Assembly: GCF_021869965.1 (NCBI RefSeq)
Contig: NC_063380.1
Location: 4,066,974 to 4,088,238, forward strand
Reading direction: 5' to 3'
Length of the DNA stretch: 21,265 nucleotides
From: Rhincodon typus
Taxonomy: Eukaryota
Shown: piece by piece, positions 3,191-21,265 of the stretch
How the letters are laid out: each line of letters begins with the position of its first letter
How positions within the stretch are numbered: position 1 is the stretch's first letter
Program-made: the position numbers and the translations under genes
The notes under the pieces: model-generated
The model's input: only the letters and a program-made list of their open reading frames with translations
Told to the model about the DNA's origin: nothing
Databases searched by the model: none

Positions 3191-4139
3191 GTTCCCCGTT
3201 ATAAGTGCTCCCATTTCTGACTGTAAAGGACCTACAATGGTCTTCACTAAACTCTTTCTCTTCACACAGCTTTTATAATCAGTTTCTGTGTTTCCTTCAT
3301 CCTGCTTTGCTGACATCCAAACCGCTCCCAATCTTCACGTCTGGTACTTATTTTAGCTAATTTGTACACTCCCACCTTGGATCCAATTCCCCTGGTTAGC
3401 CACGGTTGGGTGTTGGAGAAGTTCGAGTAACAGGACTGCAGCTGTCAGACTTCGAGGCAAAGAGAACTTTTTATTCCTGATATTACAGAGCATCAACACT
3501 AACGAAGGTTAGATACCAAAGACTCTGCAGCAATGCAGAGTTACGAGATATTTATACACAGAGAGACAAAGAAGTCAACGTGACAGATAACAGTGAACGC
3601 GTGATCCAAAGCTTAACGTTCTCCAGAAATCTCATCAGCTTCCTGAGCTGCAGGCTTTGTTCTTATGTTAATGTTTAGCTAACATGCACTTATTTTACTG
3701 ACTGGGGCAAAAATGTGATTAGGTTTTACGAAGAAAGCAGTTATTAAGAACTGGGGAGGTGGGGTTTGAACACCCTTTTAATGTTGTCTGTCACAGTCTT
3801 TTTGATACTGACTTTTCTCAAACTTTGTTAATGTCCTCCACATTGGGCCACCTTTCACATTTGTATTTTTTCAGCCCGACAGCAACGAGCAAGTGTTGCA
3901 GTTCCCCTACGTACATTCTATACGCTTGCCCTTATCTGACTGCTTCATGTTCCCCAAACTATCATTGCCAGCTTATGCCTCATACCATCACAGCTTCCTC
4001 TGTTTAGATTCAGGAGCCTAGTCTCCGATTCTACTACAGCACCCTCTACGAAGAACTCTATCTCCGAACTACTGAGCAAAGACTTTGCCTCCCGCTGCGA
4101 CAGCAACCTTGCCATACAAATCCCTCAGCAGCTGACTCA

Positions 4140-4325
<186 letters not shown>

Positions 4326-5228
4326 TTACAACACAGTGACAGCTACTCCCAGCAACATTATGTCCCACCCAATTCTGGTAGCTGACCAAAGCCTCCTTTT
4401 GTACCCTTTATTTTATTGCAAGCCAGGAATCTGATGGCAACATATACAGAACAGATAGCTACAAGACTCAAGAGCATGTGAATGGTTCTATGCGGTCAGA
4501 ATTCAGGGAGAAAAGTTTGGGAATTAATAGGCAGCTTAGCAATGGGGTCAGGACTCGGTAATCATCCTGGGAAGATCACCGGCTCTATGCGAAGAGCTTG
4601 GAAGAAGTCTGCAGACATCAATTCTTCAGAGGGGCTGGGACAGTGAAGATTGGAAAAACTCAGGTAGAATTTGCTTGATGCAATGGGGCAAGCTCGAAGG
4701 GGAGAAAATGCAGGGGTAGTACTGGCTTGGTGAAACACTGGAGTATTCCCAAGTCCACAGTGGGGGAGGGGGGGGCGCAGGAGACTGAGCAGCCAGAATA
4801 GTCGCTGAGAGACAGTCCATGACAGTGTGACTCCAGAAAACGTGGTTCAAGGCCAATGCAACAAGTGAAGAATGGTGATCCTGTGTGAAGTATAAAGATT
4901 GGATGGCCCCCTGTGTCACTCATGTCTGAGGGGAGTTGCTGAGCAATGATTTACTATTTAATGTGTACTGCGGGCTATTCCATCAAGGTCTATTATTTAT
5001 ATTTACCAAATGTTATTTGTAGATGTTAGTAATATGTTGCACATGTAATGTAGATTGATATACTGTTCTAACATTGGATTAAAAAAACAGCTTTGCTATA
5101 CGTTGTTCAAAAATGTACAATCCTGAGGTATTTCCCCCATCAAGTTCCCTGAATCTAACAGCTTGTTTATTTGAGACAGGTCCCCGAGCCAGATCTTGCC
5201 AAAGTGGCAGTTGTGGCATTGCACCCAC

Positions 5229-8285: not shown

Positions 8286-8896
8286 TGCAATAGCATCTCT
8301 GAAGAGGCTGTTTCCAACATATTGAACCCAATGCTAAAAACCACAAGTGAGGGACAGTAAGATAATGACTAAATCAAATCTTATAGGACGGGGAACTGAT
8401 GTCCCCAGCCAGAAGCCGGCTCTTAAATACAACAGCCCGCTATTTGATCAACTCCGGAACTATTCTGGCATACCTTTCAAAGCCAAGTGCATTTCTAGAC
8501 TGACACTCTCTGCATGGAGGCAATGGGATGAGTCAGTTGCCTGGCAGCTGGTTTGCAATGCAGTGTAGGGCCAACAGCATGGACTCAATTTCACACTGGC
8601 CGAGGGTCACCATCACTCTCACCAGTTTGTCCCAATCTCTCTTCATAGGACGGTTTCCCCAAACGCCCCTCCCCCGCCCAGTGTGACTAGGTGTGTCTGG
8701 ATTAAATTCCATCTGCCATTTCTCCGCCCAAGTCTCCAGCCTATCTATATCCTGCTGTATCCCCTGGCAACTTTAGGGTGAGGAGGGGTGTGTCAGTCGC
8801 TACCGTGAGAGAACACCGAGCTCTGCAATCGCGGTCCATTTTGACCTTACAGCCACGTCGCCATCTCAGCTTGGCGGTGAAGGGAGGGAGGGCGTG

Positions 8897-8916
8897 TCTG
8901 TGTCTGTGTCTGTGTG
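8897..8916. repeat. (GTCTGT)n microsatellite 12 bp 3' of the kinesin ATG-exon donor
   Basis: gtctgtgtctgtgtctgtgtg. Confidence 0.8.
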
Positions 8917-8928
8917 CGGGACGCTCAC

Positions 8929-9152
8929 TTGTACTGCATGGTCTCTGTACGACTCCTCCAGTTCACGATCTCCAGTGAGCGGGTGTCCAGGCCACGCACA
9001 CAGGGGCCCTGCTGCTGGTCATCCTCAGTGGCCTGGTACGGCCGGAGACGGACCACCACCTGCACCTGGCGGCGATGGTGTGGACCAGCCACCTTCCTGG
9101 AGGACTGGACGTCTGCAGGAGGTGGAGGAAGGCTGGACGTCGTCGACTGCAT
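8929..9152 (-). CDS. KIF22: First coding exon of kif22-like kinesin: MQSTTSSLPPPPADVQSSRKVAGPHHRRQVQVVVRLRPYQATEDDQQQGPCVRGLDTRSLEIVNWRSRTETMQY(N)
   Basis: An ATG at 9152-9150 lies directly after a strong acceptor ttttctctctctctttctctccatcag|ATGCAG. The donor is TACAA|gtgagcg, and phase 2 joins the next exon to give AAt. The translation matches KIF22 RVRVAVRLRPF...[27 protein letters not shown]. In-frame upstream sequence (MMNPSLIAF...) is AT-rich and not kinesin-like. Confidence 0.7.
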
Positions 9153-9204
9153 CTGATGGAGAGAAAGAGAGAGAGAAAAGTTAAAAGCAATTAATGACGG
9201 GTTC

Positions 9205-10320
9205 ATCACTATGCAGGGAGTGCCACACTTTTATTCCTTTGTTGGATGAGTGTGTCACCGGTTGGGCCCAGCATTTACTACTCTTCCTAGTTGTCCCTTG
9301 AGGAGGTGGGGGTGAGCTGCCTTCTCGAACCGCTGCAGTTCACGTGCTGTAGGTAAGACCCACAATGCCATTAGAGAGGCAATTCCAGGATTTTAACCCA
9401 GTTAAAAGGAAGAGCTGATATACTTCCAAGTCAGGATGGGGAGTGGCTCGGTGGGGAACTTGCAGGGGGCTGCTGTTCCCACATATCTGCTGCCCCTTCT
9501 CCTTCTGGATGGAAGTGGCCGTGGAAGGTGCTGCCTGAGGATCTTTGGGGACTTTCTGCAGCATTTTATAGATGGTACACACCGCTGCTACTGAGCATTG
9601 GTGGTGGTGGCAGATGTTGGACAGGCTTTGGGGAGTCAGGTGGTGAATTACTTGCAGCAGTATACCCAGCCTCTGACCTGTTCTAATAGCCATAGTATTC
9701 ATATGACGAGTGCAGTTCAGTTTCTGGTCAATGGTAACCCCAAGGATGTTGATATTGGGGGAAATTCAGTGATGATAATACCATGGAATGTCAAGGGGAC
9801 AGTGGTTAGATTGTCCCCACTAAGTGACAGTCATAGCCTGGCACTTGTACAGTGCAAATATCTCTTGCCACTTGTCAGCCCAAGCATGGACGTTGTCCAG
9901 TTCTTGCTGCTTCTGGACTGCTTCAGTGTCTGAGGAGCCGTGAACGGTGAAGATTGTGCGATCATCGGCAAATATCCCCACTTCTGACCTTACGATGGTA
10001 GGAAGGTCATTGATGAAACAGCTGAAGGTGGTTGAGCTCTAGGGCACTACCCTGAGGAAATCCTGCAGAGATTTGCCGGAACTGAGATGACTGAACTTCA
10101 ACGACCGTAACCATTTTCCTACGTGCCAGGTACCACTCCAACCTGCAGTTCCCCGATGCCCATCGATTCCAGTCTTGATACCACACTCAGTCGAACGTGA
10201 CGTTGATGGGGTGTGGGTTCGTTGTTCCTTGAAAGCAGAGTTGCGCGTAGGCAGGGTGATGAAGGCTGCATTTAATATTCCATCTACACTTCTTGTTGCC
10301 GTGGAAAGGCTGTCGACATT
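9205..10320 (-). mobile_element. LINE family A, 3' portion (RT ...RKMVTVVE.QSSQ...GFPQGS... to the SVAAVCTIYKM... C-terminus); the 3' end lies at about 9205 next to the kinesin ATG exon
   Basis: The minus-strand translation is colinear with the plus-strand copy at 18295-19430 (the same blocks SVAAVCTIYKM, ATSIQKEKGQQI.GN.SPLQVP and 3' UTR ctgcagcggttc...aataaatgctgggcc). Confidence 0.7.
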
Positions 10321-10856
10321 ATCATAGACCCCTCCAACCCTGGTAATATTCTCTTCCTTCTGGCAGAAGATACAGAGACTCGAATACATACACCAACAGG
10401 TTCAAGAACAGCTTCTCTCCCCTCTGTTATTAGACTGCTAAACAGACCTCTCTAATGTCAAATTACTTTTTGTACACCTCCTGCGCAGTTGTAACATTGC
10501 ACACCTCAGTCTGTCTGGGTGCCTGTCCATCCGAAATAAAAACCGAAAGAACTGCGGATGCTGTAAATCAGGAACAACAACAAAGTTGCTGGAAAAGCTC
10601 AGCAGGTCTGGCAGCACCTGTGAAGGAGAAAACAGAGTTAACGTTTCAGGTCCGGTGACCCTTCCTCAAAACACGCACACTGAGGAAGGGTTCTGAGAAA
10701 GGATCATCGGACCCGAAATGTTAACTTTGGTTTTTCCTTCACAGATGCTGCCAGATCATGTCTGTCCTTGTTTGCTATGATCTGCGACTGCTGCTTGCAA
10801 AACAAAACTTTTCACTGTAGTTGGGTAGACATGACAACAATAAATCAAATCAAAAG
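10320..10856 (+). mobile_element. LINE family B (L2-type, ...IIDPSNPGNILF...SLPSVIRLLNRPL*) C-terminus plus 3'UTR ending ...cactgtagttgggtagacatgacaacaataaatcaaatcaaa; a hairpin repeat is embedded in the UTR
   Basis: It matches the minus-strand family B copy at 15893-17340 (KDPSHPGYTLF...NRFENSF and the same ...acatgtgacaacaataaatcaaac terminus). Confidence 0.6.
10540..10770. repeat. Full-length hairpin short repeat (arms about 95 nt; loop ...ggtgacccttcctcaaaacacgcacactgaggaagggtt...)
   Basis: The left arm gcggatgctgtaaatcagg...gctcagcaggtctggcagcacctgtgaaggagaaaacagagttaacgtttcaggtc is the reverse complement of the right arm gacccgaaatgttaactttggtttttccttcacagatgctgccagatcatgtctg. Confidence 0.65.
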
Positions 10857-11455
10857 CTTGCCTTTATGGATCAGTGCATCGAGTATAGAACATAGGACAG
10901 CACAACACAGGAATGGGCTCTTTGGCCCATGATGTTCTGTCAAACTTGATGCCAAATTAGACCATTCCCTTCTGCCTGCCCTTGGTCCATATCCCTTCAT
11001 CCCTTGCATATCCATGTACTTATCTAGAAGTCCCTTAAACACTCCTATCATATCTGCCTCCACCACCACCCCTGGCAGCGCATTCCAGTCTCCCACACAG
11101 TGTGTATAAAAAAAAACTTGCCTCTCACATCTCCTTTCAATATTCCCCCCTGTCACCTTAAATGCATGCCCCTTATAATTAGGCCTTTCAACTCTGGGAA
11201 AAAGATTCTGACCGTTATCCCTACCTCTGCATCTCATAACATTATAGACTTCTATCAAGTCTCCCCTCAGCCTCTGCCACACTAGAGAAAACAACCAGAG
11301 CTTTTCTAGCCTCTCCTTATAGCTTATACCCTCTTATCCAGGCAGCATCCTGCTAAACCTCTTCTGCACCCTCCCCAAAGCCTCCAAATCCATCCTGTAA
11401 TGTGGCGACCAGAATTGAATGCAATGCTCTAAGAGTGGCCGAACCAAAGTCTTAC
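10857..11455 (-). mobile_element. CR1-like LINE (family C) 3' portion: LVRPLLEHCIQFWSPHYRMDLEALGRVQKRFSRMLPGLEGISYKERLEKLWLFSLVWQRLRGDLIEVYNVM...FKGLLDKYMDMQGMKGYGP...
   Basis: This is the minus-strand ORF 10845-11294 and its upstream continuation. Its 3' end abuts the family B LINE 3' end tail to tail at about 10857. Confidence 0.7.
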
Positions 11456-12132
11456 ATACAAGTCAGGACGTCACGTACAGGACATTGGTGAGGCCACTTT
11501 TGGAATACTGCATTCGACTCTGGTCTCCCTGGTATAGGGAAGATGTCACGAGGAGTGGCAGATGGAGTTTAATTTAGCTAAGTGTAAGATGTTGCATTTT
11601 GGAAAGGCAAATCGGGGCAGGACTTATACACTTAATGGTAAGGTCCTGGGAAGTGTTGCTGAACAAAGAGACCTTGGAGTGCAGGTAGACAGGGTGGTGA
11701 AGGCGGCGTTTGGTACACTTTCCTTTATTGGTCAGAGCACTGAGTACAGGATTGGTTAGAGACAAAAAAAACTGCAGATGCTGGAATCCAAGGTAGACAA
11801 ACAGAAGGCTGGAAGAACACAGCAAGCCAGGCAACATCTGGAGCAAAGGAGCAGTCAATGTTTTGGGTATTACCCTTCCTCAGGGCTGGAGACCTGAAGA
11901 AGGGTAATGCCCAAAACCTTGACTTCTTCCTTTCTCCAGATGCTACCTGGCTTGCTGTGTTCTTCCAGCCTCCTGTTTGTCTGCATTGAGCTTAGCAGTT
12001 GGGAGGTCGTGTTGTGGCTGTAAATGTTAGACCACTTTTGGGACACTCCCTTCAATTCCAGTCTCCCTGCTGTAGGAAGGATGCTGTGAAACTCAAAAAG
12101 GTTCAGAAAAGAATTACAATGGATTTGCCAGG
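11445..12132 (+). mobile_element. CR1-like LINE (family C) 3' portion in inverted orientation: an LVRPLLEYCIRLWSPWYREDV fragment, then EWQMEFNLAKCKMLHFGKANRGRTYTLNGKVLGSVAEQRDLGVQV...FIGQSTEYR, interrupted by a hairpin repeat, then ...LVRP-like/CRKDAVKLKKVQKR...
   Basis: From the plus-strand translation. It shares a 19-bp core gtcaggacgtcacgtacag (11451-11469) with the minus-strand copy. Confidence 0.62.
11757..11965. repeat. Hairpin short repeat copy inserted in the LINE (aaaaaactgcagatgctggaatcc...ctggaagaacacagcaagccaggcaacatctggagcaaaggag / ctttctccagatgctacctggcttgctgtgttcttccagcc)
   Basis: The arms are reverse-complementary. It interrupts the LINE ORF between ...FIGQSTEYR and the downstream LINE sequence. 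Confidence 0.62.
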
Positions 12133-12905
12133 GTTTGAGCCATAGGGAGTGGCTGGGGTTATTTTCCCTGGAGCGTCAGAGGCTGAGGGGTGTCCTTATA
12201 GAGGTTTATAAAACGATGAGGGGCATGGATAGGGTAAATAAACCAGGTCTTTTCCCCAGGGTGGGGGAGCCCAGAACTAGAGGGGCATAGATTTAAGGTG
12301 AGAGGGGGAAAGTGTAAGGGTTTGAGCTACAGGGAGAGGCTGGATAGGCTGGGGCTATTTTCCCTGGAGCATCGGAGGCTGAGGGGGTGACCTTACAGAG
12401 GTTTATAAAACCATGAGGGGCACTGAGTAGGGTAAATAAACAAGGTCTTTTCCCCAGGGTGGAGGAGTCCAAAACTAGAGAAGCATAGGTTTAAGGTGAG
12501 AAGGGAAAGATTTAAAAGGATATGGAGAGGCTGAGGGGGTGACCTTATAGAGGTTTATAAAACCATGAGGGGCAATGGATAGGGTAAATAAACAAGGTCT
12601 TTTCCCCAGGGTAAGGGAATGTCAAGAACTAGAGGGGCATAGGTTTAAGGTTGGTGGGGAGGGGGGGGGGGATTTAAAAGGATATTGGAGGGTTTGAACT
12701 ACAGGGAGAGGCTGAGGGGGTGACCTTATAAAGGTTTATAGAACCACGAGGGGCAACGGAGGGGCAATGGCCAAGGAGCAGAGGGTCATAGGTTAAAGGT
12801 CAGAGAATAAAGGTTTTTAAAAAAGGATCCAAAGAGACATTTTCTTCAACACGCAGAGGGTGCCACGTGCTGCCAGAGGAAGTAATACAATCATAACATT
12901 TAAAA
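12133..12905 (+). repeat. Tandem array (about 4 units of 165-210 bp) derived from the CR1-like LINE 3' coding tail (...ERLG.FSLE.RRLRGDLIEVYK.MRG.DRVN.QGLFPRV.ES.TRGH.FKV.GE..K..)
   Basis: The unit gagaggctgagggggtgaccttatagaggtttataaaaccatgaggggca..ggatagggtaaataaacaaggtcttttccccagggt...agaactagaggggcataggtttaaggt... starts again near 12133, 12311, 12521 and 12686. The last unit runs on into ...FFNTQRVPRAARGSNTIITFKK, close to the LINE C-terminal motif, and stops 27 bp from the putative exon-1 donor. A G11 run lies at 12661-12671. Confidence 0.7.
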
Positions 12906-13260
12906 AGGCGTCCTTTCAGTTAGTCTCTTACCTGTTTTTTCTCCCCTCGCCGGCCAGAACGGGTTCTCTCACTCATCCCAACCGCCGCCCGATTCAAATC
13001 TGACCAGAGCCCCGCCCCCCGGCTCCCGAGCGCCTCATCTGACTGGTCCGCTGCCCCGTCGTCACCCCAACTCTATTGGCCGCCATGCGCAGGCCCGCCC
13101 CCATAACGGAAGGGGCGGCTCGCCGCCTCCGGTTGGCCGAAGTACACGTCAATCGTAGACACGCCCACCTTCCCATTGGGCGGGCGTCCCAGTTGGTCAC
13201 GTGCCACGGCACCCATTGGACGCTTCAACCGTCTATCATCTGTACCGCGACCTGTTCCCC
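12900..13260 (-). promoter_or_regulatory. CpG island with 3 CCAAT boxes plus CHR (TTTGAA) and GC boxes; candidate cell-cycle (G2/M-type) promoter oriented toward the minus-strand kinesin gene
   Basis: The segment is very CpG dense in an otherwise CpG-poor window. Plus-strand ATTGG (minus-strand CCAAT) sits at 13075-13079, 13175-13179 and 13215-13219. TTCAAA (minus-strand TTTGAA, the CHR) is at 12993-12998. Sp1-like ccccgcccccc is at 13010-13020 and gggcggg at 13179-13185. Confidence 0.4.
12932..12995 (-). other. KIF22: Putative non-coding exon 1 (5'UTR) of the kinesin gene; the TSS end is not defined
   Basis: Minus strand reads ...gggagaaaaaacag|gtaagagactaactg, a consensus donor at 12932/12931-12930, immediately downstream of a CHR element and three CCAAT boxes. 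The ATG exon at 9152 starts at a strong acceptor, which implies an upstream exon. Confidence 0.3.
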
Positions 13261-13261
13261 T

Positions 13262-13445
13262 CTGAGATAGGAGGAACTGCAGATGCTGGAGAATCTGAGA
13301 TAACAAGGTGTAGAGCTGGATGAACACAGCAGGCCAAGCAGCATCATAGGAGCAGGAAGGCTGACGTTTCGGGCCTAGACCCTTCTTCAGAAAATGATGC
13401 TGCTTGGCCTGCTGTGTTCATCCAGCTCTACACCCTGTTATCTCT
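13262..13445. repeat. Full hairpin short repeat copy inserted in the CpG island (ggaactgcagatgctggagaatctgagataacaaggtgtagagctggatgaacacagcaggccaagcagcatc ... gatgctgcttggcctgctgtgttcatccagctctacaccctgttatctc)
   Basis: The arms are perfect or near-perfect reverse complements. Confidence 0.68.
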
Positions 13446-13960
13446 GTTCCCCTCTGATATTGGATTTACCGGAACGCCCGCCCCTCCAGGCCCGCGCCTG
13501 CAACCCACTGGTTATTCCTCAATACATTCTTCCAATCGGATTGGAAGATTCTGTTGTCAGTCACCAGTCTTGCTGCCCGTCTCATTCGCCTCCCGCCCCT
13601 AATGGTTTACATTGGTCGATCCAACCATCCATCATTCACGCTTCCCACCCATCCGGTACTACCTGTCAATCAACTCTCGGACCTGCCTCCTGCGGATGGG
13701 ACTGCTTTTTGACCTTTCCCCGCCCCTTCCGCTGTGCTGATGTCACCTCCCATTAGTTTGTCCTGGTGTCAATCACCGAATCCTGTCCTCCATTGGTTTC
13801 TGCAGCTGCCCATCAGCGGAACGGCCCAAGCGGAGGAGACGGGACATTCCTGTTCCCTCCCACATTCAGACTTCCTGTTCCCTCCCACATTCAGACTGAG
13901 GAGTCTCCAAATAGTTTGCCTCCAAACAAAGTCGCTGCTTCAATAACTCCTTCTCACTTC
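13446..13960. promoter_or_regulatory. Second GC-rich block carrying a palindromic CCAAT pair (cttccaatcggattggaag, about 13536-13554), further ATTGG/CCAAT boxes, TGATGTCA, and a 2x tandem 24-bp motif (tcctgttccctcccacattcagact, 13845-13892)
   Basis: Read directly from the sequence. It is separated from the 12900-13260 island by a hairpin-repeat insertion. Confidence 0.25.
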
Positions 13961-15892: not shown

Positions 15893-17340
15893 TTGATTTA
15901 TTGTTGTCACATGTACTGAGATACAATGACAAGTGTTGTTTTGTGTATTAGACAGGCAGATTGTACAATACAAAGTGCATCAGGGTAGCAGAACAGAGGG
16001 CAGAAATGTAGTGTTACAGCCGCAGGAAAGGCACAGAAAAGGAGAGATCAACATTAACATTTGAAAGTGTGATAAGAAGCTGTTCTCAAATCTGTTTGTA
16101 CATGTGTTCAAACTTTTATGCCTTATGCCGGATGGAAGAGGTAGGAAGAGAGTGTAACCGGGGTGGGAGGGGTCTTTGATGATGTTGGTTGCTTTCCCAA
16201 GGCAGTGGGAAGTGTAGATGGAGCCAGTGGATGGAAGGCTGGCTTGTGTGATGGACTGGGCTGTGCTCACAACTCTCTGTCGTTTCTTGTGGTCCTGTGG
16301 TATAGCAACTGTTCTTCCCGCTCTGATGCATCCAGATGGAATGCTTGCTTATGGTGCCTCTATAAAAATTGTTAAGAGTCCTTGTGGACGTGCTGAATTT
16401 CCGTAGCCTCCTGAGGAAGTAGCTGCGTTGTTGTGCCTTCTTGGCCATTGTGTCAACATGGATGGACGTGGCCAGATTGTTGGGTGATCATCGCCTCCCA
16501 GGAACATGACACTCTCGACCGTCTCTATCTCAGCACCATTGGTGCAGACCAGGGCATGTCCTCCACCCCGCTTCCTGACGTCAGTGACCAGCTCCTTCAT
16601 TTTGCTGACATTGGTGGAGAGATTGGTGTCTTAACACCATGTCGCTATGCACTCGGTCTCTTTCCTGTGTCCTGTCTCGTCGTTGTTTAAGACCCGACCT
16701 ACAACAGCAGTGTCATCAGCAAACCTAAATGGAGTTGGAGCGGAATTTGGCCATGGGTGTATAAGGAGTGTGGTAAGGGTATGCAGCCCCGTGGAGCACT
16801 GGTGTTGAGGTATATGGTGGAGGAGGTGTTGTCGCCTAATCTCACTGTCTATGGGTCAGAAAGTCCAGCTACAGAGGTGGGTGGGGGGGGTGGTGTGGAG
16901 CCGAGACCTAGGGCTCAGGGTTTGGAGATGCCTTTGTTTGGGATTATGGCGTTGAAGACGGAGCTGTAGTCCAAGAGTAGACTTGTCATTCAGATGCAGC
17001 GGGGATGAGCATAGGGCCAGGGAGATGGGGTCTGCCATGGGCCCATTGCGCCGGTAGGCACATTGTCTTGATCCTTTGCAATCTGGGAGGCTGGCGTTAA
17101 TATGAGCCCTGACTTAACTCTCGAAGCACTTCATAACGATGGAGGTGAGGGCAGTAGTCTGCATGACTTTTCTTCGGCACCGGGATGATGGCAGCCTCCC
17201 TGCAGCGGGTGGGGACTTCGGATCAGAGTAAGGAGGGGTTAAAGATATCAGCGAATACCAGCAGCCAGCCTGTCCACACAGGATCTGAGCGCGTAGCCCG
17301 GGACTCTCTATCCAGGGCCTGCCGCTTCTCGTGGGTTTTC
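15893..17340 (-). mobile_element. Internally deleted L2-type LINE (family B). The RT N-terminus (...NPGKPTRSGRPWIESPGLRAQ...ALTSIVMKCFE) is joined to the C-terminus (...LVTDVRKRGGGHALVCTNGAEIETVESV...MAKKAQQRSYFLRRLRKFSTSTRTLNNFYRGTI...KDPSHPGYTLFLPLPSG...NRFENSF)
   Basis: Minus-strand ORFs 17114-17398, 16349-16600, 16116-16448 and 15980-16270. The 3' terminus ...acatgtgacaacaataaatcaaac lies at about 15895-15950. Confidence 0.7.
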
Positions 17341-18294: not shown

Positions 18295-19430
18295 AACTCC
18301 TGAGGTGAGGTGAGAGTGACAGCCCTTGACGTCAAGGCTGCGTTCGACCGAGTGTGGCATCACAGAGCCCTAGCAAAACTGGAATCAATGCCAATCAGGG
18401 GGCAAACTCTCTGCTGGTTGGAGTCACACCTGACACAGAGGAAGATGGTCATGGTTGTTGGAGGTCAATCATCTCAGCTCTGGGACATCTCTGCTGGAGT
18501 TCCTCAGGGTAGTGTCTTAGGCCCAACCATCTTCAGCTGCTTCATCAATGACCTTCCCTCCATCATAAGGTCAGAAGTGGGGGATGTTCACCGATGGTTA
18601 CACAATGTTCAGCACCATTTGTGACTCCTCAGATACTGAAGCGGTCCGTGTTCACATGCAACAAGATCGGGACAATATCCAGGCTTGGGCTGACAAGTGG
18701 CAAGTAACATTCGCGCCACACAAATACCAGGCCAGGACCATGACCAATAAGAGACAATCTAACTGCCATTGACGTTCAGTGGTGTTACCATCCCTGAATC
18801 TACCCATTATCAATATCCTGGGGGTTGCCATTGACCAGAATCTCAACTGGACTCCCCACATAAACATGAGCAGGTCAGAGGTTAGGAATACTGTAGCAAG
18901 AAACTGACATCCTGACTGTCCACTTGCCTGGATGAATGGACCTCCAACAACAGTCAAGAAGCTTGACATCATCCAGGACAAAGTAGCCTGGATTGGCACC
19001 ACATCCACAAACATCCCACTCCACCCGCCACCACCGAAGCTCAGTTGCAGCAGTGTGTACCATCTACAAGATGCCCTGCAGAAATTCACCAAAGACCCTC
19101 AGGCAGCATCTTCCAAACCCCACGGCCACTTCCATCCAGAAGGACAAGGGGCAGCAGATACACGGGAACACCAGCCCCCTGCAAGTTCCCCTTTGAACCA
19201 CTCTTAATCCTGACTTGGAAATATATCGCCGTTCCCTCAATGTGGCTGGGTCACAATCCTCGAATTCCCTTCCTAAGAGACACTGTGGGTCTACCCACAG
19301 CTTATGGACTGCAGCGGTTCAAAAAGGGAGCTCACCACTATCTTTTCAAGGGGCTGCTAGGGACAGGCAATAAATGCTGGGCCTAGCCAGTGATGCCCAC
19401 ATCCCACAGATGTATTAAAAAAAATTGTTA
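18295..19430 (+). mobile_element. LINE family A 3' half (RT ...LDVKAAFDRVWH...QRKMVMVVGGQSSQ...GVPQGSVLGPTIFSCFINDLP...MFTDGYTMF[FADD-box degenerate]...SVAAVCTIYKM... to the 3'UTR ...ggcaataaatgctgggcctagccagtgatgcccacatcccacagatgtattaaaaaaaa)
   Basis: ORFs 18310-18624, 18584-18772, 18993-19196 and 19045-19386. It is colinear with the minus-strand copy at 9205-10320 and ends in an A-rich tail. Confidence 0.72.
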
Positions 19431-20249: not shown

Positions 20250-20723
20250 GACAGAATAATCTCCGTTTCCACCTCTCTGTCTCGCTGCCTGTAACAAAAG
20301 TTGGTCTCATTGTGGTGAGTCTCTGTCTCCCTCTCCAGCTGTTCTCACTGCGGTCTCTCTCGCTCTCTTTCTTGCTCCCTGGCTTGTGCTGTCGCTGTCA
20401 CTTTCGCTGTCTTGCGCTCTCTCGCTCTCGCCCTTGCTCTCTCGCTCTACCATGCTCCCTGGCCCTCGCCCTCTCTCTTACCCTCTCTTGCCCTTGCCCT
20501 CTCACTCTTGCCCTTGCCCCACCTTCTCGCCCTTGCCCCCCTCTACTCTTTCTCACCCTTGCTCTCTCGCTCTCTGTCTGCCCTCTCTCGCTCTCTCTCG
20601 TTCTACCATGCTCCATGGCCCTCACCCTCTCTTACCCTCTCTCGCCCTTGCCCTCACCCCCACTCTCACCCTCTCTCACCCTTGCTCTCTCTCTGCCCTT
20701 TCTCACCCTTACTCTGTCGCGCA

Positions 20724-20761
<38 letters not shown>

Positions 20762-20860
20762 GCCCTACACCGTCCCTCCAGCCAGTCTCGCTGTGGTCAC
20801 TCTCTCTGTCTCTCTTCCTCCCCACCCTGTCCAGTTGGTCTCCTAGTGGACAATCCCTAG
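20250..20860 (+). repeat. About 600-bp polypyrimidine (CT-rich) low-complexity tract with (CT)~16 at 20726-20758 and an internal duplication of about 160 bp (20440-20600 against 20600-20760). It lies immediately upstream of the pagr1 exon
   Basis: Read directly. All long ORFs here (20312-20860, 20386-, 20412-20846) are SLSL/PLPL low-complexity artefacts. Confidence 0.8.
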
Positions 20861-20862
20861 GC

Positions 20863-21146
20863 ATGCAGACAGAGGATGCTGACCCTGCAGTCAGCCTAGC
20901 TGAACTGACTGTGGACACTGAGGATTCATGGTGCGTTGAATGCAGTGACCAGGAGATCCAGGATGCAGAGACGTGGACTCCGAGCCCCCAAGAGATCCTA
21001 CGCCTGTATGGCGCCCTTGCTGAGGAGGGAAGCAGCCTTGAACTGAGCTGCAGACCCCTACCCCGCCGTCCACCAACTCCCGAGGCTGACCCTACAGAGG
21101 AGGAGGCGGAAGAAGAGGAGGAGGCGGAAGAGCAGGCCACTGAGAA
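20863..21146 (+). CDS. PAGR1: First coding exon of a PAGR1 (PAXIP1-associated glutamate-rich protein 1) orthologue: [94 protein letters not shown](K)
   Basis: It matches the recalled human PAGR1 block EDWCVPCSDEEVELP...[43 protein letters not shown] followed by a glutamate-rich tail. The donor is GAGAA|gtaagataat at 21147. An acceptor-like ccctgtccag|TTGG at about 20834 may mark the exon start. The upstream in-frame CT-repeat translation is not credible coding. Confidence 0.55.
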
Positions 21147-21149
21147 GTA

Positions 21150-21265
21150 AGATAATCTCTCTCACTACCTCTCTCTCTGTGTCTCTGTCTCTGTCTCTCT
21201 CATTCTCTCGCTCTGAGCCCCTGCCTCTCTGTCTCCCTCGATCTCTCCCCCTCTCTCTGAGCCCC
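21150..21265 (+). repeat. CT-rich low-complexity tract resuming directly after the pagr1 exon donor
   Basis: ctctctcactacctctctctctgtgtctctgtctctgtctctc... Confidence 0.7.

What the first reader, a model, noticed from the sequence alone, without database searches (positions are those of the whole stretch)
12900..13260. Distal CCAAT x3 + CHR CpG-island promoter with a spliced 5'UTR exon, about 3.8 kb upstream of the kinesin ATG exon
Reading the minus strand from high to low coordinate gives CCAAT at 13219-13215, CCAAT at 13179-13175 (overlapping a GC box), CCAAT at 13079-13075, an Sp1-like GC box, TTTGAA (the cell-cycle genes homology region) at 12998-12993, and then a consensus donor CAG|gtaagag at 12932. 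That is the textbook arrangement of NF-Y/CHR promoters of G2/M genes, the class chromokinesin KIF22 belongs to. It pairs naturally with the unusually strong acceptor (ctctctttctctccatcag|ATG) in front of the ATG exon at 9152. The implied intron 1 (9153-12931) would then be stuffed with LINE copies, a hairpin repeat and a LINE-tail tandem array. The alternative is a promoter for an unannotated or divergent transcript.
Basis: partly seen in the sequence, partly recalled or inferred. Interest (0 to 1): 0.6.

Follow-up and report, generated by a model that had tools for sequence, protein, structure and literature searches.

The report
Whale shark KIF22 promoter and first exon
This short CpG island is the ordinary promoter and small first exon of the whale shark mitotic kinesin gene KIF22; the public gene annotation already uses the exon, and the promoter has the CCAAT-plus-CHR design known from mammalian G2/M genes.

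Summary
They sit in a 329-bp CpG island (GC 0.65, CpG o/e 1.03; intron 1 is 0.29). Three same-strand CCAATs arise in 0.04% of dinucleotide shuffles.

The proposed 12932-to-9152 splice is already in the public annotation. RefSeq KIF22 of Rhincodon typus (XP_048476887.1) begins MSERTRSGRRGEKKQ|MQSTT. That is window 12976-12932 joined to the exon starting at 9152, and the window reproduces its first 384 residues exactly.

The CHR block, a short exon 1 and an acceptor 0-12 nt before the conserved ATG recur in zebra shark, catshark, horn shark and a stingray. Gar shows the same layout, but by eye only. The hexamer varies only among TTTGAA, TTCGAA and TTCAAA, all documented functional forms. Mammalian KIF22 is a listed conserved-CHR late cell-cycle gene.

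Corrections:
- Exon 1 carries a whale-shark-specific in-frame ATG (ACG in zebra shark).
- The 40/100-bp CCAAT spacing is neither the textbook ~33 bp nor conserved.
- The proximal CCAAT found in relatives is CCAGT here.
- The start site is unmapped.

Verdict: supported, ordinary, already known.

The parts
12932..13260 (-). CpG island forming the KIF22 promoter and exon 1
   Evidence: 329 bp with GC 0.65, 33 CpG and o/e 1.03. Flanking intron 1 has o/e 0.29.
13215..13219 (-). CCAAT box 1 (distal)
   Evidence: Conserved in Stegostoma at L001 5994.
13198..13203 (.). E-box CACGTG, 11 nt downstream of CCAAT box 1
   Evidence: Not conserved in Stegostoma.
13175..13179 (-). CCAAT box 2, overlapping a GC box (plus-strand GGGCGG 13178-13183)
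   Evidence: Conserved in Stegostoma at L001 6034, keeping the same 40-bp spacing.
13075..13079 (-). CCAAT box 3
   Evidence: In Stegostoma the same spot reads CCATTGG, an inverted box.
13042..13046 (-). Degenerate proximal CCAAT box (CCAGT), 48 bp upstream of the CHR
   Evidence: Stegostoma has GGACCAATCAGATGAGG at the orthologous position. The whale shark has GGACCAGTCAGATGAGG.
13012..13017 (-). GC box (GGGCGG) just upstream of the CHR
12993..12998 (-). CHR element TTTGAA. It has no CDE-like GC element at the usual 4-nt distance upstream, so it is a CHR-only type.
   Evidence: The orthologous block is found in Stegostoma, Scyliorhinus (TTCGAA), Heterodontus and Hemitrygon (TTCAAA).
12978..12990 (-). 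GC box followed by the conserved GGCGGTTGG block just downstream of the CHR. It contains CGGTTG, a relaxed MYB-site match on the other strand.
   Evidence: GGCGGTTGG is present in all four sharks. CGGT is invariant in all five elasmobranchs.
12932..12976 (-). 3' part of exon 1: in-frame ATG plus 14 codons (MSERTRSGRRGEKKQ), as annotated in RefSeq XP_048476887.1
   Evidence: The ATG is ACG in Stegostoma.
12926..12931 (-). Intron 1 donor GTAAGA (CAG|GTAAGA)
9153..12931 (-). Intron 1 (3779 nt), rich in repeats
   Evidence: CpG o/e is 0.29. A repeat copy lies directly upstream of the acceptor (related copy at 18993-19400).
8929..9152 (-). Exon 2, starting exactly at the conserved KIF22 ATG behind a strong acceptor
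   Evidence: An acceptor 0-12 nt before the ATG is seen in 8 species.
13297..13444 (.). Hairpin repeat bounding the island on its upstream side
   Evidence: Arms of 51 nt, 98% complementary. Part of a stretch of about 177 bp (13382-13558) with no counterpart in Stegostoma.

Best explanation
The island at 12932-13260 (minus strand) is the promoter and short first exon of whale shark KIF22, a chromokinesin. Transcription starts somewhere in roughly 13100-12977. Exon 1 ends at 12932 and is spliced across a 3779-nt repeat-filled intron to the exon that begins at the conserved ATG (9152).

By analogy with mammalian late cell-cycle genes, NF-Y bound at the upstream CCAAT boxes, together with Sp1-type factors at the GC boxes, would supply basal activity. 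The CHR (TTTGAA, 12998-12993) would be bound through the MuvB core protein LIN54. DREAM would then repress the gene in G0/G1, and MMB/FOXM1-MuvB would activate it in G2/M.

Shown here: the motifs, the island, the exon/intron structure as publicly annotated, and deep conservation of the CHR block and of the exon-1/acceptor layout. Inferred: the start-site position, factor binding and cell-cycle regulation.
For: - Annotation. RefSeq XP_048476887.1 uses exactly exon 1 (12976-12932) joined to 9152, and the window matches 384/384 of its first residues.
- Catshark. The only significant blastn match between the whale shark island and the 10.4 kb upstream of catshark KIF22 is the 26-nt CHR block (E=0.004).
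- Horn shark and stingray. A profile of the block finds the predicted horn shark site as top hit (E=0.0039). The stingray site is its only hit, though weak.
- Independent models. Annotated exon-1 peptides of Scyliorhinus torazame and Mobula hypostoma translate from the homologous block.
- CHR variants. At the orthologous site the hexamer is TTTGAA (whale shark, zebra shark, horn shark), TTCGAA (catshark) or TTCAAA (stingray). Gar has TTTGAA in the same layout, by eye only. The first two are among the three most common CHR forms, and TTCAAA is the documented functional inverse of the canonical CHR. CHRs lie on or near the start site with CCAAT boxes upstream, and KIF22 is in that paper's Table 1 of conserved-CHR late cell-cycle genes (PMC4176359).
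- Acceptor. It lies 0-12 nt before the conserved ATG in all 8 species.
- Proximal alternative is weak. The sequence right upstream of 9152 is a repeat in a CpG-poor intron.
- Chance. The motif cluster is very unlikely to arise by chance (P=0.0004).
Against: - No transcript, CAGE or ChIP data could be reached, so the start site and factor binding are inferred.
- RefSeq models are predictions, and I could not inspect their RNA-seq support.
- The CCAAT spacing (40, 100 and 81 bp to the CHR) differs from the ~33 bp of cyclin B2-type promoters.
- The proximal CCAAT kept in relatives is mutated here.
- Whale shark versus zebra shark identity across the island (78%) is no higher than in neighbouring introns (84-90%). 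At that distance only the CHR block stands out.
- The gar site was identified by eye and not recovered by nhmmer.
Confidence: 0.88

Rival explanations
1. The island is mainly, or also, a bidirectional promoter that drives an unannotated plus-strand (divergent) transcript. It could alternatively be a distal alternative promoter of PAGR1, which lies head-to-head upstream.
For: PAGR1 (PAXIP1_C domain) is on the plus strand with its ATG at 20863. The KIF22-PAGR1 head-to-head pairing also occurs in a frog, only about 2.2 kb apart. CpG-island promoters are commonly bidirectional (general knowledge).
Against: PAGR1 is 7.8 kb away, behind LINE fragments, and has its own GC-rich region. No protein-coding gene is called within the 10 kb upstream of zebra shark KIF22. 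The plus-strand side of the island runs straight into a hairpin repeat. All three CCAAT boxes and the donor are minus-oriented. In head-to-head pairs with a CHR, only one gene is cell-cycle regulated (PMC4176359). This reading does not exclude the KIF22 promoter reading.
Confidence: 0.12
2. The real KIF22 start site is next to the ATG exon (within about 200 bp of 9152). The upstream exon would then be a minor isoform or a gene-prediction artefact.
For: The ATG exon region is moderately CpG-rich (8700-9152: GC 0.60, o/e 0.62). It is more strongly so in catshark, horn shark and gar. RNA support for the RefSeq model could not be inspected.
Against: A strong pyrimidine tract plus AG sits right before the ATG in all 8 species. 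The sequence at 9240-9700 is a dispersed repeat copy. Independent annotations in four further species, S. torazame, Cetorhinus, Mobula and Hemiscyllium, carry N-terminal extensions. Those of S. torazame and Mobula translate from the homologous exon-1 block. The CHR block is conserved between sharks and a ray.
Confidence: 0.05
3. The motif cluster is a chance by-product of a GC-rich island with no NF-Y/CHR function. The promoter would then be a generic housekeeping-type CpG island.
For: Individual CCAAT boxes turn over between whale shark and zebra shark. Each box deviates from the extended NF-Y consensus at one flank position, and the spacing is not conserved.
Against: Shuffles give P(>=3 CCAAT)=0.0004, and 0 of 5000 had a CHR downstream as well. 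Every examined elasmobranch has CCAAT/ATTGG boxes upstream of the conserved CHR block, and gar shows the same by eye. The CHR varies only among documented functional forms.
Confidence: 0.07

Closest known systems
Mammalian KIF22 (Kid) promoter, one of 148 late cell-cycle genes with an evolutionarily conserved CHR (Mueller et al. 2014, PMC4176359) and a listed p53-p21-DREAM target (PMC4705690, PMC5729532)
   Same: It is the orthologous gene: kinesin motor, 97% identical to zebra shark KIF22, with the PAGR1 neighbour as in frog. It is a CpG-island promoter with a canonical CHR near the 5' end of the transcript and CCAAT boxes upstream.
   Different: The shark, ray, gar and frog genes place the ATG behind an intron (1.4-8.5 kb in elasmobranchs). 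From memory, and not tested here, the main human transcript has its ATG in exon 1. No experimental data exist for the shark promoter, and direct sequence orthology to the mammalian CHR was not tested.
Cyclin B2 (CCNB2)-type CHR-only G2/M promoters bound by DREAM and MMB (Mueller et al. 2012, PMC3287175)
   Same: Several upstream CCAAT boxes plus a single CHR, no canonical TATA near the CHR, and no CDE-like element at the 4-nt position upstream. The CHR is the most conserved element.
   Different: CCNB2 has three CCAAT boxes about 33 bp apart, with conserved distance to the CHR. Here the spacings are 40 and 100 bp, with 81 bp to the CHR. The spacing is not conserved among sharks, and the proximal box is degenerate in the whale shark.
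RefSeq gene model for Rhincodon typus KIF22 (protein XP_048476887.1)
   Same: Identical exon 1 end (12932), exon 2 start (9152) and coding sequence for the first 384 residues.
   Different: The model treats the 3' end of exon 1 as coding, from an ATG that is lineage-specific.

Membership tests
KIF22 orthologue (gene identity of the downstream exons) | Kinesin motor sequence closest to annotated KIF22 proteins | tested here: met
   The 369-aa assembled N-terminal part is 97% identical to Stegostoma KIF22, and the hit list is KIF22 throughout. It is 100% identical to R. typus XP_048476887.1 over 384 aa.
Annotated first exon / intron 1 of KIF22 | Exon 1 donor at 12932 joined to the acceptor at 9152 in a public gene model | tested here: met
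   The N-terminus of XP_048476887.1, MSERTRSGRRGEKKQ|MQSTT, equals window 12976-12932 joined to 9152.
CpG island (Gardiner-Garden and Frommer criteria) | At least 200 bp, GC at least 0.5, CpG o/e at least 0.6 | tested here: met
   329 bp, GC 0.65, o/e 1.03.
CHR-regulated late cell-cycle promoter (DREAM / MMB-FOXM1) | CHR hexamer of a documented functional type (TTTGAA, TTTAAA, TTCGAA or the inverse of the canonical form) | tested here: met
   TTTGAA at 12998-12993. The type list is from PMC4176359.
CHR-regulated late cell-cycle promoter (DREAM / MMB-FOXM1) | Phylogenetic conservation of the CHR | tested here: met
   The orthologous block is present in 4 other elasmobranchs. Substitutions occur only between functional CHR variants.
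CHR-regulated late cell-cycle promoter (DREAM / MMB-FOXM1) | CHR located on or very close to the transcription start site | not testable with these tools
   No CAGE or 5'-end data were available. The annotated CDS starts 17 nt downstream of the CHR. Models in related species start upstream of it.
CHR-regulated late cell-cycle promoter (DREAM / MMB-FOXM1) | CCAAT boxes upstream of the CHR | tested here: met
   Three minus-strand CCAAT boxes lie 81-221 bp upstream. Enrichment P=0.0004.
CHR-regulated late cell-cycle promoter (DREAM / MMB-FOXM1) | Binding of LIN54/DREAM/MMB/FOXM1 and peak expression in G2/M | not testable with these tools
   This needs ChIP and cell-cycle expression data from shark cells. 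It is known only for mammalian KIF22.
Cyclin B2-type 'textbook' NF-Y/CHR layout | About 33 bp between neighbouring CCAAT boxes, with conserved distance to the CHR | tested here: not met
   Spacings are 40 and 100 bp, with 81 bp to the CHR. They differ in Stegostoma, Scyliorhinus, Heterodontus and gar. The reference spacing is from PMC3287175.

The most novel reading that the evidence does not exclude
The layout of CCAAT boxes, a CHR, a short non-coding exon 1 and an acceptor a few nt before the ATG may be ancestral to jawed vertebrates. It appears in shark, ray and gar, and the acceptor also in frog. At one orthologous site the CHR may have toggled between TTTGAA, TTCGAA and TTCAAA. These states are linked by single CpG transitions of the palindrome TTCGAA, which effectively flips the orientation of the element without losing it. 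That would be a natural illustration that LIN54/MuvB recognition does not depend on orientation over several hundred million years. In the whale shark, a lineage-specific ATG in exon 1 may also add 15 residues to the kinesin N-terminus.
Probability: 0.45. Interest if true: 0.25.

Novelty: already known. Interest (0 to 1): 0.12.

Why it matters
It matters little beyond good annotation. The result confirms that the whale shark KIF22 gene has a distal promoter and a tiny first exon, as the public model says. It also shows that the NF-Y/CHR logic of G2/M genes described in mammals is recognisable in cartilaginous fishes. The comparison gives a compact, testable example of deep conservation of a CHR alongside turnover of the neighbouring CCAAT boxes. 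It also flags that the annotated 15-residue N-terminal extension is lineage-specific and may not be biologically meaningful.

Tried and rejected
- Direct transcript evidence. Exact look-up of the whale shark protein (P0122) and of Hemiscyllium KIF22 (P0003) found no contig on record. No shark transcript-assembly hits appeared among the homologues; the Logan hits were all about 66-69% identical to the query.
- Carcharodon locus. No DNA was returned because the gene range was too long.
- Chiloscyllium plagiosum. No island was found in the 10 kb upstream. The expected position coincides with an assembly gap at L004 6136-6635.
- The 'called gene' ranges turned out to be CDS ranges, so they give no UTR or start-site information.
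- Rfam scan of the whole window found no RNA family.
- The supplementary tables of the CHR paper, which might give the human KIF22 CHR position, are not held.
- A literature search for a dissected KIF22/Kid promoter found nothing relevant.
- The CHR-block profile did not recover gar or frog sites. The gar site rests on inspection, and the frog promoter could not be assigned confidently.
- A CDE/CHR tandem was considered and rejected. The 5 nt at the canonical 4-nt spacing upstream of TTTGAA read CTGGT, which is not CDE-like.
- A second homologue search to fetch the human or mouse locus was not spent, because it would not change the verdict.

Full report
**1. The observation**

- CCAAT boxes lie at 13219-13215, 13179-13175 and 13079-13075. 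The second overlaps a GC box on the other strand at 13178-13183.
- Minus-strand GGGCGG boxes lie at 13100-13095, 13017-13012 and 12990-12985.
- TTTGAA lies at 12998-12993.
- The only CAGGTAAG in the whole window lies at 12934-12927, which puts an exon end at 12932.

The segment 12932-13260 is a bona fide CpG island: 329 bp, GC 0.65, CpG o/e 1.03. The window average is 0.38 and the proposed intron 1 is 0.29.

In 5000 dinucleotide-preserving shuffles of 12900-13260 the mean CCAAT count was 0.16. Three or more occurred in 0.04% of shuffles. No shuffle combined three CCAATs with a TTYGAA downstream.

**2. What the downstream gene is**

tblastn with remembered human sequences, followed by reading the splice sites, gave seven clean minus-strand exons. 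They are 9152-8929, 6769-6642, 6549-6389, 5990-5781, 5338-5229, 4302-4182 and 281-128, all with AG/GT boundaries.

The 369-residue product is 97% identical to KIF22 of Stegostoma tigrinum, and its whole hit list is KIF22.

The exon at 9152 starts exactly at the ATG behind tctctctttctctccatcag. The 500 bp upstream of it is a copy of a dispersed repeat also seen at 18993-19400.

**3. The decisive result**

The 90% cluster of the zebra shark protein contains XP_048476887.1, 'kinesin-like protein KIF22 [Rhincodon typus]', 652 aa. It begins MSERTRSGRRGEKKQ and then MQSTTSSLPPPPADV.

Window 12976-12932 (minus) translates to MSERTRSGRRGEKKQ. Joining 12976-12932 to the seven exons above reproduces the first 384 residues of that protein with no mismatch.

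The exon is therefore real as far as the public annotation goes. I could not inspect the RNA-seq support of that model.

**4. Comparative evidence**

I fetched the KIF22 loci of these species:
- Stegostoma (L001)
- Scyliorhinus canicula (L002)
- Heterodontus francisci (L003)
- Chiloscyllium plagiosum (L004)
- the stingray Hemitrygon akajei (L005)
- gar (L006)
- the frog Spea (L007)

The 'gene start' in these loci is the conserved ATG, not the transcript start.

*Acceptor.* All eight species, the window included, have a pyrimidine tract plus AG 0-12 nt before that ATG. Examples are cag|ATG in whale and zebra shark, cag|gtaacc ATG in catshark, cag|gtcgcc ATG in gar and cag|gtaact ATG in frog. 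An intron immediately upstream of the start codon is therefore old.

*CHR block.* Upstream of the ATG each elasmobranch has a CpG island with CCAAT/ATTGG boxes, a CHR-type hexamer and a GT donor 46-75 nt further on. The positions are Stegostoma 6215, S. canicula 8526, Heterodontus 5517 and Hemitrygon 1420.
- The only significant blastn match of the whale shark island in the 10.4 kb upstream of catshark KIF22 is the 26-nt block around the CHR (E=0.004).
- A profile of that block from three species finds the predicted Heterodontus site as the top hit (E=0.0039). The Hemitrygon site is the only hit there, and it is weak (E=2.5).
- The multiple alignment shows invariant columns concentrated on A-ATT--AA and on CGGT just downstream.
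- Independent RefSeq models agree. The N-terminal extension of S. torazame isoform X1 and of Mobula hypostoma isoform X2 translate from the homologous catshark and stingray DNA across the CHR block.
- Gar shows CCAAT at 4062 and 4160, ATTGG at 4218, TTTGAA at 4258 and a GGTAAG donor near 4416. This was identified by eye only.
- The Chiloscyllium island is hidden in an assembly gap at the expected place.

*CHR variants.* At the orthologous site the hexamer is TTTGAA in whale shark, zebra shark and horn shark. It is TTCGAA in catshark and TTCAAA in the stingray.

*Literature (PMC4176359).*
- TTTGAA, TTTAAA and TTCGAA make up 80% of CHRs.
- The inverse form TTCAAA is functional.
- 45% of CHRs are in reverse orientation.
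- CHRs lie on or very near the start site, with CCAAT boxes upstream.
- KIF22 is in Table 1 of late cell-cycle genes with evolutionarily conserved CHRs.

KIF22 is also listed among p53-p21-DREAM targets. Change restricted to functional variants is what purifying selection on a working CHR predicts.

**5. Corrections to the interpretation**

(a) Exon 1 is not purely untranslated in the whale shark. It contains an ATG at 12976 in frame with the main ORF, and RefSeq uses it. The zebra shark has ACG there, so the 15-residue extension is lineage-specific and the ancestral exon 1 is non-coding. If transcription starts upstream of 13038, there is also a 14-codon upstream ORF from ATG 13038-13036 to a TGA inside the CHR.

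(b) The layout is not 'textbook'. Cyclin B2-type promoters have about 33 bp between CCAAT boxes, with conserved distance to the CHR (PMC3287175). Here the spacings are 40 and 100 bp, with 81 bp to the CHR. Only the 40-bp pair is shared with zebra shark. The third box is an inverted CCATTGG there.

(c) The box that is positionally conserved is GGACCAATCAG, 48 bp upstream of the CHR in zebra shark. Comparable proximal boxes lie 40-64 bp upstream in catshark, horn shark and gar. In the whale shark this box reads CCAGT at 13046-13042. From general knowledge, NF-Y requires the intact pentanucleotide.

(d) The start site is unknown. The annotated CDS fixes it upstream of 12976. Models in relatives begin at least 70 nt upstream of the CHR.

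(e) There is no CDE-like element at the canonical 4-nt distance upstream of the CHR, so this is a CHR-only promoter.

**6. Surroundings and rivals**

PAGR1 (PAXIP1_C domain, E=4.5e-13) lies on the plus strand with its likely ATG at 20863, head-to-head with KIF22. The same pairing occurs in Spea, about 2.2 kb apart. In the whale shark the two genes are separated by 7.8 kb of LINE fragments with RT and endonuclease domains.

A 148-bp hairpin repeat at 13297-13444 abuts the island. About 177 bp (13382-13558) has no zebra shark counterpart. Beyond it lies more CpG-rich sequence with a CCAAT and a GC box, so the ancestral island may have been split by an insertion.

The rivals are weaker:
- A divergent transcript cannot be excluded without stranded RNA data, but it would not displace the KIF22 reading.
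- A start site next to 9152 is contradicted by the conserved acceptor, the repeat and the low CpG content upstream.
- Rfam finds nothing in the window.

**7. Verdict**

The finding is correct in substance and ordinary. It is the promoter and first exon of KIF22, already captured by the public gene model, in a gene already known in mammals as a conserved-CHR G2/M gene.

The mechanism (NF-Y activation, with DREAM repression and MMB/FOXM1 activation through the CHR) is inferred by orthology and motif conservation. It was not shown for any shark.

Modest points of interest are the deep conservation of the CHR block with switching among functional variants, the turnover of CCAAT boxes, and the lineage-specific upstream ATG.

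Noticed in passing
window 20863-21150 (+): First coding exon of PAGR1 (PAXIP1_C domain, E=4.5e-13), head-to-head with KIF22 and preceded by a CT-rich low-complexity stretch at about 20300-20860. The KIF22-PAGR1 divergent pairing also occurs in the frog Spea (L007 2551-3831), only about 2.2 kb apart. In the whale shark the spacer has grown to 7.8 kb through LINE fragments.
   Followed up: partly
window 12974-12976 (-); L001 about 6238: The ATG that RefSeq uses as the whale shark KIF22 start is ACG in zebra shark. The 15-residue N-terminal extension is therefore lineage-specific and may be an annotation choice rather than a conserved feature.
   Followed up: yes
window 13042-13046 (-); L001 6167: The proximal CCAAT box, a perfect GGACCAATCAG in zebra shark 48 bp upstream of the CHR, is CCAGT in the whale shark. 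The third whale shark CCAAT is an inverted CCATTGG in zebra shark. CCAAT boxes turn over while the CHR stays fixed.
   Followed up: yes
window 12978-12986 (-); L002 about 8540; L003 about 5543; L006 about 4270: A conserved GGCGGTTGG lies 7-9 nt downstream of the CHR in the sharks. It contains CGGTTG (CAACCG on the other strand), a relaxed MYB-site match. Gar has a perfect TAACGG in the opposite orientation at a similar distance. A possible B-MYB site next to the CHR was not tested.
   Followed up: no
window 13297-13444 and 13382-13558: A hairpin repeat with 51-nt arms that are 98% complementary abuts the island. About 177 bp, including its distal arm, has no counterpart in zebra shark. CpG-rich sequence with another CCAAT and a GC box continues beyond it at about 13560-13620, so an insertion may have split the ancestral island.
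   Followed up: partly
window 16538-16626 (-): This is the only other same-strand triplet of CCAAT within 150 bp in the window. It lies in what looks like repeat-derived ORF sequence, with no CHR or donor nearby.
   Followed up: no
window 12151-12509, 11789-11988, 10607-10755, 10845-11294: Intron 1 holds a 198-bp x 1.8 tandem of a LINE-tail-like unit, two long hairpins (99-nt and 66-nt arms) and a LINE-tail ORF (RLRGDLIEVY...). Related copies lie elsewhere in the window and in the zebra shark locus.
   Followed up: partly
L004 6136-6635: The Chiloscyllium plagiosum assembly has a 500-N gap exactly where the KIF22 promoter island should be. A PITH-domain gene is called on the opposite strand further upstream (L004 1-5137).
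   Followed up: partly
L002 9901-10300; L003 10001-10300; L006 5701-6200; window 8700-9152: The ATG exon itself sits in a second CpG-rich patch. CpG o/e is 0.8-1.0 in catshark, horn shark and gar but only about 0.6 in the whale shark. Whether this is coding-sequence composition or an alternative internal promoter is unknown.
   Followed up: no
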